From: a virus
UHGV virus genome: UHGV-1656152
Reading direction: 5' to 3' (one strand)
Length of the DNA stretch: 14,310 bases
Below are positions 3,001 to 6,000 of this stretch, piece after piece; position 1 is the stretch's first letter, and every line of letters starts with the position of its first letter. The position numbers are program-made.

Positions 3001-6000
3001 ATTGAGGTTTATGATCAGAATGGACGACTGGCTGTTCGCATAGGCAGATTACGCTGATCAGGAGGTGAGTATTGGAATACGGTTTTGCCATTTATAACAG
3101 AAATAACGTTAATGTTACGGGCGTGCTTACTCCCATATTTTTCCTGGACAGGTTTACGGCGGAGTCGGGATCAAAAACGTATACGAATAAACCAGAAGGG
3201 AAAACATTGCAGGCAGTCTGTTCATTATTTCCGTGGAATAATGTATTTAAGGACCGGAAAGTACCGAAGATAACCATTAATGGCAATACGGTGATGTGGT
3301 CAAATCTTGAGCAGGGGATGGGGTCATATATTTATACATTCTGGGGGTGAGTTGTATGTATGGTTTAAGCATTACGAAACCAGATGGCAGCTTGTGGATA
3401 AGCCCGGGGTTTACGCCTCAGTGTCTGATCAATAAGGGAACTATTCCGGCGACTGAGAAGGCTTTTTTTAAAACGTCAATTCCGTCAGGAAAAAGTTGTT
3501 TTTTCTTTATCAGAACAGAGAAGAAGGCCGATGTCATGTACACGCATGAACAGATTGATGGATATCATGCCTTAAGGCTTCATCAAATTGTCAGGGGAAC
3601 GAATCCTGGTGTTACGACTGTTTATGCTTTTGCGAATATGGTTACTCAACCTTCTGAGTATGGTATCGCCATGTATAATCCGTTGGGTGAGATGATTTAC
3701 CATGGCGAAATGATGCTGCTTGACGCGAAGTTAATACCTGTTGATATCAAATTTGAAAAGGACCTTGGATATCCATGCGCAATTATGCCTGCACTGGTCG
3801 GGTATTATAACTGGAAAAGAACTCCTTATGATCGACCGATTTATACCACATCCACTGGCGCTACAGGAAATAAAATATATTCCTGTGAGCATTATTCAGG
3901 TGGTGCAACATGGGATATTCGAAAGCCTTATGTAGACAAAGTTCTTGTTATTAATACTTCAATGTATGATTAGCACAATAAAATTTATCAATCATTTTAA
4001 GAAAAATTTTTATTTTTTATTTCCAGGCAGGATGGTAAATAATCAAAAATGTGGAAAGGACAGAGAGAACAATGTTTTTAATATAGGAAGATTCTTAAAA
4101 TGAAAAGTATCACAAAATTTCTTGTGTGCGCAACTCTGGGCTTAGGTGGATTAACTGCACAGGCACATGCTGCATCTGGTGATAGTACCGTATCCCTTGG
4201 ATTCGCTCACCTTCAGCTATCCGGGCTGAATAATTTTGTTAAGGATTTAAGTCTTCATAACCTTGATACCTTTAACAATTTTGTGAATGAAAACTATTTC
4301 AATTCACCTGGAGAATATGACGATGCGTTTGTCCGGGGCCATGATGGTAAAGAGAAAAGTCCCTTGGGAATGAACATTAAGTATCGTTATGAGATTACGG
4401 ATGAGATCGGTGTTATAACCTCTTTTGCATGGGCTCGATCCATGACTAATGCACAGGCATTCATTGATGTTAAGCCTTCCGATCCATCACGAGAGGTAAA
4501 AAAACCGGCAGCTTCAGCGAGAACTGATATCAGGGCTAATTACTGGAGTCTACTATCCGGTCCTTCGTGGCGGTTTAATGAATACCTCAGTGTGTATTCA
4601 ATGGCAGGTGTTGCGGTTGCAAAAGTAACTTATGATTTGAAAGTTAACGACAATCTTAATGGTGGTGTAGGTAGTTTTTCTGAAAGTAACAGCACCAAAA
4701 AAACGTCTATTGCATGGTCTGTCGGCGCGCAATTTAACTTCAATGAAAGTGTTACTATGGACGTCACTTATGAAAGCTCAGGCTCTGGCGACTGGAAAAC
4801 TGATGGTTTATTTGCAGGCATTGGCCTGAAATTCTGAGTAATACCCGACAACATGTCATAACCCGCTGTGATGGCGGGTTTTTTGTTGCCCGTGCAGGGC
4901 AAAAATCGTAGATTATGCGCGGGTGTCTTTCGGCTGATGGCTGGAAGGTGAACCTGAAGGCCTGATGTGGAAAGGCCCCGAGTCAAACATTTTGTTTAAC
5001 CCGAGGCCCTAACCATCATACCTTAAGCAAGTAGAAGGTTAGCGCCTCTCCACTCAGGAGGCAAGCGCTATGTCGCAAAAATCGCTCATCACCGTCACAA
5101 TTTGTATGACGGTAATCTTCACCATCTGGATGTTACACGGCTCGTTGTGTGAGTTCCGGCTGAATTTGTGGGGAGCGGAGTTTGCGGCGTTCTTACAGTG
5201 TAAGCAGTAGGAAAACCGCGACGGGGACGAAAGTCCCCGTCAACTGGTTGCTGAGGTTCAGCCGATATGGCACCCGTTTCTGGTGAGAGAATGGACGACA
5301 AAATTCTCCGGTATATGCAGCGTGTTGTGAGAAATTCCCGCAACCCTGAATTTATGAATGAAGTTAAAGACGCCTGCCTTAAAAAGCAGGCGTTTTGTTT
5401 TGAGGCACCTGATGGCTTTCTGGTGCTGCGTTCTGTGCTCAGTGCTGATGGTATCCCTTATGTTTTGGTGTTGCTGGGCGTGTGTACGGGGAGTAACAGC
5501 GTTGAGCGTTATCTGCCGGAGGTGAAGACATTAACCCGTCTGGCTGGCGGACGCTGGGCTGAATTTCATACGGCAAGACGGGGATTTATCCGGCTGGGAA
5601 AACGTCTGGGCTTTGAGCGAATGCCGGATGATGAGGATGGCTTCATGGTGTTCAGGATAGCGGTCTGACTGCCACTGTATTCATTATCGTGTGTAAACCA
5701 ATTGCAATTCACATTCTGACCCTGCCCCGGCAGGGTTTTTTGTTATCCAGGGGGCCATAATGGGCGGAAAAAAAGGCGGTGGTGATACCAAAGTAAAACC
5801 AACAGCAGCGCAAATAGCACAGGAAGAAGTGGCCTGGAAAGGGTGGCAGGATTATCAAAAAATCCTCCGCCCGGCTGAAGATAACTTCATGGAAAAGGTC
5901 GATGACCTGAACAGTGAGCAGCAGTACGACAATATTGCTGGCACCACAAATCTGGGGTATCAGAAACAGTTTGGCGAAGCACGGAAGGAGCTGGCGGGTA

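What the first reader, a model, noticed from the sequence alone, without database searches (positions are those of the whole stretch)
5267..5668. Strong terminator-like hairpin inside the 133-aa ORF
ACGCCTGC-CTTAAAAA-GCAGGCGT followed by TTTGTTTT (5370-5399) lies in the middle of what the track calls one ORF. Either the ORF is real and the hairpin acts as an internal attenuator, or the true gene is shorter and the hairpin is the real 3' end of the upstream hok-like transcript (which would then be about 480 nt from the predicted start). The two readings give different annotations of this region.
Basis: seen in the sequence. Interest (0 to 1): 0.45.

Follow-up and report, generated by a model that had tools for sequence, protein, structure and literature searches.

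The report
Conserved terminator hairpin inside a phage gene
A textbook transcription-terminator hairpin sits inside a real, conserved prophage gene, and its DNA letters are frozen across many bacterial genera, so one stretch of DNA encodes both a protein segment and an RNA signal.

Summary
ACGCCTGC-CTTAAAAA-GCAGGCGT (5370-5393) plus TTTGTTTT (5394-5401) is the only site in the window that meets strict terminator criteria (0 in 100 shuffles).

The ORF is real. It is phrog_610, it has a GNAT fold, and it is a syntenic late gene of 933W-like prophages in E. coli, Salmonella, Citrobacter, Yersinia, Serratia, Pectobacterium and Brenneria. Its likely start is ATG 5291, not 5267. "The gene is shorter" is refuted.

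The hairpin is a selected nucleotide element.
- Among 28 non-redundant homologues (51-69% DNA identity), synonymous diversity is 0.03 in the hairpin and T-tract codons against 0.58 elsewhere.
- It holds the only 9-mers shared across about 6.4 kb.
- It persists where no hok or cargo lies upstream.
- A sister clade lacks it, and there the encoded peptide varies freely.

The upstream hok-like module (about 4886-5278) ends in a fold-back element at 5257-5278 and has no terminator of its own. The embedded hairpin is the next terminator downstream, about 480 nt from the predicted start.

Best reading: a dual-coded intrinsic terminator that stops transcription not modified by the phage Q antiterminator. 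No 3'-end data were available to me. Covariation is absent because the stem is invariant.

The parts
4860..4887 (+). Intrinsic terminator after lom (AACCCGCTGTGATGGCGGGTT + TTTTGTT). It marks the upstream limit of the hok-like module.
   Evidence: -12.2 kcal/mol.
4886..4914 (+). Putative promoter of the hok-like mRNA (TTGCCC, 17 nt, TAGATT). The predicted start is about 4919-4921.
   Evidence: Read from the sequence. It is conserved in phi24B and in the P2-like prophage copies. The start site itself is inferred, not mapped.
4919..4937 (+). 5' element resembling the hok tac element. It pairs with 5257-5278 in the predicted fold.
   Evidence: Minimum-free-energy folds, (z -6.9 and -5.7). Substitutions in phi24B and the P2-like copies keep the pairing.
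4950..5029 (-). Predicted Sok-type antisense RNA. It corresponds to the published 80-nt 24B_1 precursor of phage phi24B. Its promoter -10 is the reverse complement of 5036-5044 and its -35 the reverse complement of 5059-5064. The 20-nt 24B_1 maps to about 4977-4998.
   Evidence: PMC4426718 gives the promoter boxes and coordinates. Rfam sok matches 4921-5081 at 35.1 bits, below the gathering score of 59. The RNA ends are approximate.
5070..5210 (+). Hok/Gef-family toxin ORF (46 aa) with its own AGGAGG ribosome-binding site. No overlapping mok frame was found.
   Evidence: Pfam HOK_GEF, 33.2 bits against a cut-off of 22. PGAP annotates it as Hok/Gef.
5219..5242 (+). G+C-rich stem-loop just after the hok stop codon (CGACGGGGAC-GAAA-GTCCCCGTCA). 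It has no T tract on the + strand. It matches the position of the 3'-UTR hairpin of R1 hok mRNA.
   Evidence: -21.7 kcal/mol.
5257..5278 (+). Element resembling the hok fbi fold-back element (UCAGCCG...GGCACCCGU). It pairs with the 5' end, and it marks the 3' limit of homology with other copies of this hok module.
5291..5668 (+). Probable true coding sequence of the GNAT-fold late gene (phrog_610, 125 aa). It is annotated from ATG 5267 as 133 aa.
5370..5393 (+). The embedded hairpin: an 8-bp stem (6 G-C pairs) and an 8-nt loop. It is coded by D35-A-C-L-K-K-Q-A42 and the first base of the F43 codon.
   Evidence: Stem codons are invariant at synonymous sites in 28 non-redundant homologues.
5394..5401 (+). 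U tract of the terminator (TTTGTTTT), coded by F43-C44-F45. The predicted RNA 3' end is about 5399-5402.
   Evidence: Both Phe codons are TTT in 28 of 28 homologues, while four other conserved Phe codons (positions 100, 107, 116, 129) mix TTT and TTC.
5718..5745 (+). Second intrinsic terminator, directly after the GNAT gene (GACCCTGCCCCGGCAGGGTT + TTTTGTTA). It was seen in the E. coli and Citrobacter/Salmonella-like members examined, not in the Pectobacterium/Yersinia-type members.

Best explanation
The hairpin is a functional intrinsic (Rho-independent) terminator written into the coding sequence of a real late gene. That gene encodes a 125-aa GNAT-fold protein (phrog_610) and sits between the tail-fibre/cargo region and the distal late genes of 933W-like short-tailed prophages.

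The same 35 nt encode residues D35-F45 and an 8-bp G+C-rich stem plus a U tract. Selection on the RNA signal has frozen both the synonymous sites and the peptide.

Proposed mechanism (inferred):
- RNA polymerase that is not modified by the phage Q antiterminator, and not closely followed by a ribosome, stops at about 5400. This would apply to transcripts starting in the fibre/cargo region, including the hok-like mRNA made in lysogens. Such transcripts would then not run into the rest of the GNAT gene or the distal late genes.
- Q-modified late transcription reads through.

In this window the hok-like module (about 4886-5278) has no terminator of its own. It would therefore use the embedded one, giving a primary transcript of about 480 nt that may then be trimmed back to the fold-back element at 5278.

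What is shown: the ORF is real; the hairpin is under strong nucleotide-level selection; it is oriented for the + strand; it is the first terminator after the hok fold-back element. What is inferred: that it terminates in vivo, that read-through depends on Q or on translation, and what the termination is for.
For: Anatomy:
- Canonical stem, loop and T tract.

The ORF is real:
- Homologues of 119-125 aa in other genera span the hairpin.
- phrog_610 matches residues 9-133.
- The gene keeps a conserved position between the fibre gene and phrog_611.
- None of 59 unique coding sequences has an internal stop, and codons 10-34 show the order third > first > second position in diversity.

Nucleotide-level selection:
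- In 28 homologues below 92% pairwise DNA identity, the codons are GCC 28/28, TGC 27/28, AAG 27/27, CAG 28/28, GCG 27/28, TTT 28/28, TGC 25/27 and TTT 28/28. Other invariant residues use 3-6 codons.
- Synonymous heterozygosity is 0.03 against 0.58 (Mann-Whitney p = 5e-6). The lowest 8-codon window in the neighbouring gene is 0.38.
- Diversity is flat across the three codon positions in the hairpin: 0.11, 0.08, 0.10.
- The only 9-mers shared by at least 80% of loci across about 6.4 kb come from this site.
- All 87 IMG/VR matches to GCCTGC-N8-GCAGGCGTTTTG lie in phrog_610 genes.

Support for a hairpin on the + strand RNA:
- Variation is concentrated in the loop (codons 38 and 39), not in the stem or the T tract.
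- Position 5370 is A or G, and both pair with U5393 in + strand RNA only.
- A T tract is present on the + strand only.

Independence from hok:
- The hairpin is present where the fibre gene abuts the GNAT gene, and it is usually the first + strand terminator after the fibre/cargo genes.

Natural control:
- A sister clade has no significant hairpin at this position (z -0.3 to +1.4, against -3.9 for the canonical sequence). There the peptide segment varies freely.

The hok link:
- The 5' end 4919-4937 pairs with 5257-5278.
- Homology with other copies stops at about 5275, and those copies have their own terminator 25-45 nt further on.
- In R100 a terminator follows the fold-back element by 8 nt.

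Context:
- The Sp5 late region is punctuated by + strand terminators: 33 terminator-like sites on both strands against 17.5 +/- 4.1 in shuffles.
Against: - No RNA 3'-end data were available. Term-seq for strain Sakai exists but is not held here.
- There is no covariation. The stem is invariant, so the support is conservation, not compensatory change. The few stem variants seen are single, uncompensated changes.
- An ordinary terminator does not need a fixed sequence. The near-fixed codons CGT at position 38, AAA at position 39 and TGC at position 44 (TGC interrupts the U run) hint at a constraint beyond simple termination.
- Q-modified polymerase should ignore the terminator. Relatives without upstream cargo have no known promoter to insulate against, so the benefit is unclear there.
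- A sister clade does without the hairpin yet keeps the same downstream genes, including the giant LPD38 gene.
- Translation from ATG 5291 may suppress hairpin formation.
Confidence: 0.55

Rival explanations
1. The hairpin works after transcription. It acts as a barrier to 3'-to-5' exonucleases or as a processing signal. It would stabilise the upstream fibre/cargo or hok-like RNA, or define the ends of those RNAs, within a read-through late transcript. It would not stop the polymerase.
For: - It is a strong, conserved stem on the + strand.
- With CAA at codon 34, the stem can extend to 12 bp by pairing the A-rich 5' flank with the U tract, which would use up the U tail. CAA is favoured over CAG 17 to 7.
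- Late operons read by Q-modified polymerase need some means other than termination to set different mRNA levels.
- The Sp5 late region contains many hairpins.
Against: - The U tract is as strictly conserved as the stem (both TTT codons 28/28). A pure decay barrier does not need that.
- A hairpin inside a translated ORF is repeatedly unwound by ribosomes.
- This reading shares the sequence-fixity problem of the terminator reading.
Confidence: 0.15
2. The site is a sequence-specific recognition element for a conserved factor. Candidates are a translational repressor or autoregulator (possibly the GNAT protein itself), an Hfq-type binding module, or a DNA operator formed by the 8-N8-8 inverted repeat.
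For: - The sequence itself is frozen, not just the pairing. This includes the third base of codon 38 (always T except once), AAA at codon 39 and TGC at codon 44.
- It is the single most conserved nucleotide island in about 6.4 kb.
- The site is exclusive to this gene family.
Against: - Loop residues change at the amino-acid level (K39 to N, E or Q; R38 to L, C, H or F) while the stem and T tract stay fixed.
- The A/G alternation at 5370 keeps pairing only in + strand RNA, which argues against a double-stranded DNA operator.
- No candidate binding factor was identified.
- The T tract is unexplained for a DNA palindrome.
Confidence: 0.12
3. The conserved 35 nt serve as a homology anchor for recombination. 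They would allow the variable fibre/cargo module upstream to be exchanged between phages, and the terminator-like shape would be incidental.
For: - The site lies at the border between a highly variable region and conserved distal genes. That variable region carries different cargo genes in E. coli, Citrobacter, Pectobacterium, Brenneria and Yersinia.
- 15 of 27 main-clade loci have insertions of at least 1 kb just upstream. None of the 7 sister-clade loci, which lack the hairpin, has one.
Against: - Perfect identity comes in two blocks of only about 12-16 nt, interrupted by the variable loop. That is short for homologous recombination.
- The palindrome plus the T tract would be a coincidence.
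- Insertions lie about 80-100 nt upstream of the site, not at it.
Confidence: 0.05
4. One reading: the annotated ORF is wrong, the real gene starts downstream of the hairpin, and the hairpin is an ordinary intergenic terminator of the hok-like transcript.
For: The hairpin is the first terminator after the hok-like module. Some database entries annotate shorter forms, such as 117 aa starting at M17.
Against: - Even the shortest annotated forms start upstream of the hairpin.
- No in-frame start with a ribosome-binding site lies just after it.
- Homologues in genera without hok keep the N-terminal 35 residues in frame.
- The phrog_610 profile and the GNAT model need residues 9-47.
- Codons 10-34 show coding periodicity.
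Confidence: 0.02

Closest known systems
ORF-internal intrinsic terminators and RNA 3' ends mapped by Term-seq in E. coli (Adams et al. 2021, PMC7815308)
   Same: A stem-loop plus U tract inside a translated ORF that could end transcripts prematurely or generate a separate RNA.
   Different: - This one is in a prophage late operon.
- Its 3' end has not been mapped.
- It is distinguished by near-complete synonymous-site conservation across genera, which also fixes an 11-residue peptide.
Moron and late-operon terminators of lambdoid phages read through by Q antitermination (tR' and StxS in Stx phages, PMC7547250; the moron concept as cited in PMC4104026)
   Same: A terminator that would stop unmodified polymerase in the lysogen and be overridden in lytic growth. 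It lies next to moron-type cargo (lom, hok). The Sp5 late region carries many such sites.
   Different: - Classical moron terminators are intergenic, belong to the inserted DNA and vary in sequence.
- This one lies within a core gene, pre-exists the insertions and is invariant.
- Dependence on Q was not tested.
hok/sok of plasmid R1/R100 (fold-back tac/fbi mRNA with 3' processing; PMC9841398)
   Same: The upstream module has a Hok/Gef ORF, a predicted 5'-3' fold-back, a 3'-UTR stem-loop, an antisense promoter in the leader, and a terminator downstream of the fold-back element.
   Different: - No mok frame was found.
- The Rfam sok match is below the gathering score.
- The terminator is 92 nt beyond the fold-back element and lies inside the next gene, against 8 nt in R100.
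- This is not the characterised hokW-sokW locus of Sp5, which is ECs_1245 at the other end of the prophage.
Synonymous-constraint elements, meaning RNA structures embedded in viral coding regions (FRESCo, PMC4376164)
   Same: A local collapse of synonymous variation marks a second function overlaid on the coding sequence.
   Different: Most described cases are in RNA viruses and concern packaging, replication or frameshift signals. Here it is a double-stranded DNA temperate phage and a terminator-shaped element.

Membership tests
Intrinsic (Rho-independent) terminator | G+C-rich stem of about 5-14 bp with a loop of 3-8 nt | tested here: met
   8 Watson-Crick pairs (6 G-C) and an 8-nt loop. The extended fold is -17.8 to -19.4 kcal/mol.
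Intrinsic (Rho-independent) terminator | U-rich tract directly 3' of the stem, on the transcribed strand only | tested here: met
   The window has TTTGTTTT (7 of 8 T); most relatives have TTTTGCTTT. The minus strand has no T tract.
Intrinsic (Rho-independent) terminator | Position at the end of a transcription unit (intergenic) | tested here: not met
   The site lies in codons 35-45 of a real gene. It is, however, the first + strand terminator after the hok-like module and after the fibre/cargo genes in relatives.
Intrinsic (Rho-independent) terminator | RNA 3' ends at the U tract in vivo, or termination in vitro | not testable with these tools
   Term-seq for strain Sakai (GSE143631, cited in PMC7547250) is not held here.
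hok/sok type I toxin-antitoxin module (upstream context) | Hok/Gef-family small hydrophobic toxin ORF | tested here: met
   Pfam PF01848, 33.2 bits against a cut-off of 22. PGAP annotates it as Hok/Gef.
hok/sok type I toxin-antitoxin module (upstream context) | Long-range pairing of the mRNA 5' end (tac) with its 3' end (fbi) | tested here: met
   Predicted only. 4919-4937 pairs with 5257-5278 in both folds. Substitutions in phi24B and the P2-like copies keep the pairing.
hok/sok type I toxin-antitoxin module (upstream context) | Antisense Sok RNA against the leader | tested here: inconclusive
   Rfam sok scores 35.1 bits, below the gathering score of 59. A published 80-nt minus-strand transcript of phi24B (the 24B_1 precursor, PMC4426718) maps to this position, but it was never tested as an antitoxin.
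hok/sok type I toxin-antitoxin module (upstream context) | Overlapping mok reading frame that couples hok translation | tested here: not met
   No ORF with a start codon overlaps the hok start. hok has its own AGGAGG site.
GNAT acetyltransferase superfamily (the ORF product) | GNAT alpha/beta fold | tested here: met
GNAT acetyltransferase superfamily (the ORF product) | Sequence-profile membership, and the acetyl-CoA binding motif or catalytic activity | tested here: not met
   No Pfam family at E <= 0.1. phrog_610 is of unknown function. The motif and activity were not tested.
Leader-peptide or riboswitch-type attenuator | Conserved alternative (antiterminator) structure upstream that competes with the terminator stem | tested here: not met
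   Codons 10-34 have free synonymous variation, and no conserved 9-mers occur upstream.
Programmed -1 ribosomal frameshift site | X XXY YYZ slippery heptamer upstream of a stimulatory structure, with a conserved trans-frame product | tested here: not met
   AAA AAG lies in the hairpin loop, not upstream of the hairpin. It is preceded by T. The open length of the -1 frame is 5-75 codons and of the +1 frame 10-83 codons, so neither is conserved.

The most novel reading that the evidence does not exclude
The hairpin may be more than a passive stop signal. It could be a conditional gate or a factor-recognised RNA operator on which this whole clade of 933W-like phages depends. For example, it could be a terminator whose read-through requires Q or closely coupled translation, licensing the GNAT gene and the distal virion genes only in lytic growth. 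That would explain why the sequence, and not just the structure, is frozen, and why the 11-residue peptide is largely a by-product of selection on the RNA. Cargo such as the hok-like module (which appears to encode the precursor of the 24B_1 small RNA) would then have been inserted upstream because this terminator was already there.
Probability: 0.3. Interest if true: 0.7.

Novelty: new variant of a known kind. Interest (0 to 1): 0.55.

Why it matters
Annotation:
- The ORF should be kept. Its start is probably 5291.
- The region between lom and this gene holds an unannotated or under-annotated hok/sok-like module.
- The gene carries an embedded regulatory feature that gene callers cannot show.

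Biology:
- This is a clean example in a double-stranded DNA temperate phage of one stretch of DNA under dual selection. The RNA signal appears to dictate the protein sequence, and a sister clade that lacks the hairpin serves as a natural control.
- It offers a concrete explanation for how promoter-bearing cargo next to the tail-fibre gene of Shiga-toxin phages is kept from driving the distal late genes in lysogens.
- It predicts the 3' end of a hok-like transcript whose antisense partner appears to be the much-discussed 24B_1 small RNA.
- The prediction can be checked at once in existing Term-seq data.

Tried and rejected
- Frameshifting at CTT AAA AAG: rejected. The site is in the loop and has no conserved trans-frame ORF.
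- Leader-type attenuation with an upstream antiterminator: rejected. There is no constraint upstream.
- Hairpin presence tied to the giant LPD38 gene downstream: rejected. The sister clade without the hairpin also has that gene.
- Hairpin as part of a known RNA family: only chance-level Rfam hits to terminator portions of unrelated sRNAs (BSnc120, GlmZ), far below their gathering scores.
- Hairpin as a repeated or mobile element: rejected. All 87 IMG/VR matches lie in phrog_610 genes, and there is one copy per locus.
- Known EHEC prophage small RNAs (AsxR/EcOnc02, HnrS, StxS): they map elsewhere.
- The published hokW-sokW study concerns a different locus of Sp5 and gives no 3'-end data for this one.
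- Searches for ECs1237 and for transcript mapping of this gene found nothing useful.
- Covariation analysis was uninformative because the stem is invariant.
- The resemblance of the minus strand to the lambda attB core (GCCTGCTTTTT) was recalled from memory. I judged it a short chance match and did not pursue it.
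Full report
**What is in the window**

The window is the distal late region of a short-tailed, 933W/Sp5-type (Sepvirinae) prophage of E. coli. Positions 4840-5760 are 100% identical to the chromosomes of E. coli FORC_069 and several other strains. They are 97% identical to many Stx2a-converting phages.

The gene order on the + strand is:
- an internal virion protein gene (161-1786) and a tail-fibre gene (1783-3057);
- two small cargo genes and lom (4100-4837) with its terminator (4860-4880);
- a hok-like module;
- the 133-aa ORF (5267-5668);
- a second terminator (5718-5737);
- phrog_611 (5760-6416) and the remains of the giant LPD38 gene.

**Checking the observation**

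The hairpin is exactly as described. The stem arms are ACGCCTGC (5370-5377) and GCAGGCGT (5386-5393), the loop is CTTAAAAA, and TTTGTTTT follows at 5394-5401. It occupies codons 35-45 of the ORF.

The local fold is -19.4 kcal/mol, with z = -3.7 and 0 of 200 shuffles folding as well. It is at least as stable as the two flanking intergenic terminators. Under strict criteria it is the only such site on either strand of the 14.3-kb window, and none occurs in 100 dinucleotide shuffles. The tool's loose consensus scan is not enriched over the whole window (17 against 13.9), so pattern matching alone would not carry the argument.

**The ORF is a real gene**

- Protein homologues of 119-125 aa occur in Salmonella, Citrobacter, Yersinia, Serratia, Pectobacterium, Brenneria, Chania and Dickeya. 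They align from residue 9-10 onward, across the hairpin region.
- The PHROG profile phrog_610 (124 positions) matches residues 9-133.
- The gene always sits between the tail-fibre or cargo genes and phrog_611.
- None of 59 unique coding sequences has an internal stop. Codons 10-34 show the coding pattern of diversity by codon position (0.52, 0.35, 0.66), as do codons 47-133 (0.29, 0.19, 0.55).
- The first eight annotated codons have no counterpart in homologues from other genera. ATG 5291, preceded by GGTGAGAGA, is the likely start.

The reading "the gene is shorter and starts after the hairpin" is therefore refuted.

**The hairpin is under nucleotide-level selection**

I collected homologous DNA from genomes, IMG/VR and metagenomes and reduced it to 28 sequences below 92% pairwise identity (51-69% identical to the window).

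- The hairpin codons are almost invariant at synonymous sites: GCC 28/28, TGC 27/28, AAG 27/27, CAG 28/28, GCG 27/28, TTT 28/28, TGC 25/27 and TTT 28/28. Equally invariant residues elsewhere (V53, L54, R91, T102, R104, G106, R109, G115) use three to six codons.
- Mean synonymous heterozygosity is 0.03 in these codons against 0.58 in the rest of the gene (Mann-Whitney p = 5e-6). The lowest 8-codon window in the neighbouring gene is 0.38.
- Diversity in the hairpin is flat over the three codon positions (0.11, 0.08, 0.10).
- Across about 6.4 kb around the gene, the only 9-mers shared by at least 80% of the loci come from this site.
- All 87 IMG/VR matches to GCCTGC-N8-GCAGGCGTTTTG lie inside phrog_610 genes.

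Among 45 distinct versions of codons 32-49, variation falls in the loop (codon 38 CTT/CGT/TGT/CAT/TTT/CGG; codon 39 AAA/GAA/AAC/AAT/CAA). The stem and T tract are fixed. Position 5370 alternates between A and G, both of which pair with U5393 in + strand RNA only.

There is no covariation. The few stem variants are single, uncompensated changes in close relatives of the window.

**A natural control**

A sister clade of the family (P0043 and relatives) has the same gene neighbourhood, including the LPD38 giant gene. It has no significant hairpin at the homologous position: z ranges from -0.3 to +1.4, with two partial remnants at -1.0 and -1.8, against -3.9 for the canonical sequence.

In that clade the peptide segment is highly variable (AVADGRAFIFG, AVSRGDACVFG, AISQGKARVLG and others). 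The invariant ACRKKQAFCF of the main clade is therefore imposed by the nucleotide element, not by the protein.

**Relation to hok**

The hairpin does not depend on hok. In about half of the non-redundant main-clade loci the fibre gene abuts or overlaps the GNAT gene. In the others, unrelated cargo genes are inserted. In nearly all of them the embedded hairpin is the first + strand terminator after these genes.

In the window, the hok-like module has these features:
- It runs from a promoter-like TTGCCC-17-TAGATT (4886-4914) to about 5278.
- Its predicted RNA pairs the 5' end (4919-4937) with 5257-5278. This is the tac/fbi arrangement of hok mRNAs (PMC9841398).
- Copies of the same module at the ends of P2-like prophages share only 4901-5275. 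They are followed 25-45 nt later by their own terminator.
- In R100 a terminator follows the fold-back element by 8 nt.
- In the window no + strand terminator lies between 4880 and 5370.

The embedded hairpin, 92 nt beyond the fold-back element, is therefore the expected primary 3' end. This step is inferred, because no 3'-end data were available to me.

**Most likely mechanism**

I read the site as a dual-coded intrinsic terminator that belongs to the phage backbone. It would stop polymerase that is not Q-modified, and is not closely followed by a ribosome, before that polymerase completes the GNAT gene and enters the distal late genes. Q-modified late transcription would read through.

This fits several observations:
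- the orientation of the site and the conserved U tract;
- its place at the border of the variable cargo region;
- the general punctuation of the Sp5 late region by + strand terminators (33 terminator-like sites on both strands against 17.5 +/- 4.1 in shuffles);
- the second terminator directly after the gene in the enteric members examined.

It does not fully explain why the sequence, and not just the pairing, is frozen. Nor does it explain why the sister clade manages without the hairpin. I therefore keep three rivals open: a post-transcriptional stability or processing hairpin, a factor-recognised operator, and a recombination anchor. I rejected frameshifting and leader-type attenuation.

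**Comparison with what is known**

ORF-internal terminators (PMC7815308), moron and late-operon terminators overridden by Q (PMC7547250, PMC4104026) and synonymous-constraint elements in viral genes (PMC4376164) are all known kinds. This case combines them in a form I did not find described: a terminator-shaped element inside a core late gene, invariant across genera, which dictates an 11-residue peptide. I rate it a new variant of a known kind, of moderate interest, and directly testable with existing Term-seq data for strain Sakai (hairpin at NC_002695.2 1,292,919-1,292,942).

**Side findings**

- The 24B_1 "microRNA-size" RNA of phi24B and its 80-nt precursor map to the antisense strand of this hok-like leader. 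The published promoter sits where a Sok promoter would be.
- The characterised hokW-sokW locus is a different locus of Sp5.
- The window carries a deletion of about 2.9 kb that fuses the 148-aa gene to the interior of the LPD38 gene.

Noticed in passing
window about 4950-5064, minus strand (24B_1 at about 4977-4998): The published 24B_1 'microRNA-size' RNA of phage phi24B and its 80-nt precursor (PMC4426718, PMC10732415) map to the antisense strand of the leader of this hok-like gene. The published promoter boxes lie where a Sok promoter would be (-10 is the reverse complement of 5036-5044; -35 the reverse complement of 5059-5064). Neither paper mentions hok or sok. The precursor therefore looks like a Sok-type antitoxin RNA.
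   Followed up: partly
window 6697-6701 (ORFs 6413-6973 and 6727-12945): Compared with FORC_069, the window lacks about 2.9 kb. The deletion removes the end of the 148-aa gene, the 83-aa and 421-aa genes and the 5' part of the LPD38 giant gene, and it fuses the remainder. This copy of the prophage is probably defective.
   Followed up: partly
window 5267-5290: The annotated start ATG 5267 overlaps the fold-back element of the hok-like RNA (5257-5278). The eight extra codons have no counterpart in homologues from other genera. ATG 5291 is the likely start.
   Followed up: yes
L132 1501-1874 and L133 1501-1852 (E. coli chromosomes): The same hok-like module (81-84% identical) sits at the end of P2-like prophages, just after ogr, in more than a thousand E. 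coli genomes. There it has its own downstream terminator. The module is a mobile cassette shared between unrelated phage types.
   Followed up: partly
L014 27420-27632 (Sakai ECs_1245): The experimentally characterised hokW-sokW locus of Sp5 (Takada 2021) is a second, different hok locus at the far end of the prophage. The hok-like gene next to lom is not annotated in the Sakai RefSeq record.
   Followed up: yes
L159 4917-4941, L200 5226-5251, L166 7083-7108, L135 8731-8754, L230 14123-14147, L231 13956-13980; Sakai L014 17987-18006: An intergenic terminator recurs just upstream of the giant LPD38 gene, in both the hairpin-bearing and the hairpin-less clades. It is often AAGCCTCGCC-TTAAAAA-GCGGGGCTT followed by a T run, and its A-rich loop resembles that of the embedded hairpin.
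   Followed up: no
L223-L231 (Logan/JGI contigs): A sister clade of phrog_610 has a DUF6453 gene upstream, with a 4-nt overlap, and no insertions at that junction in 7 of 7 loci. It lacks the hairpin. L225 and L226 keep the outer stem bases and the T tract but have lost the inner stem, which looks like decay or an intermediate state.
   Followed up: partly
window 5070-5210 and upstream: This hok-like gene has its own AGGAGG ribosome-binding site and no overlapping mok frame, unlike R1 hok.
   Followed up: partly
window 5291-5668 (protein): The product is a minimal GNAT-fold protein of 125 aa. Its structural neighbours include the anti-CRISPR acetyltransferase AcrVA5 and the TacT toxins. It has no Pfam match, and its function is unknown.
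   Followed up: no
window 1-160: The first 160 bases of the window do not align with FORC_069 or Sakai at the position upstream of the internal virion protein gene.
   Followed up: no
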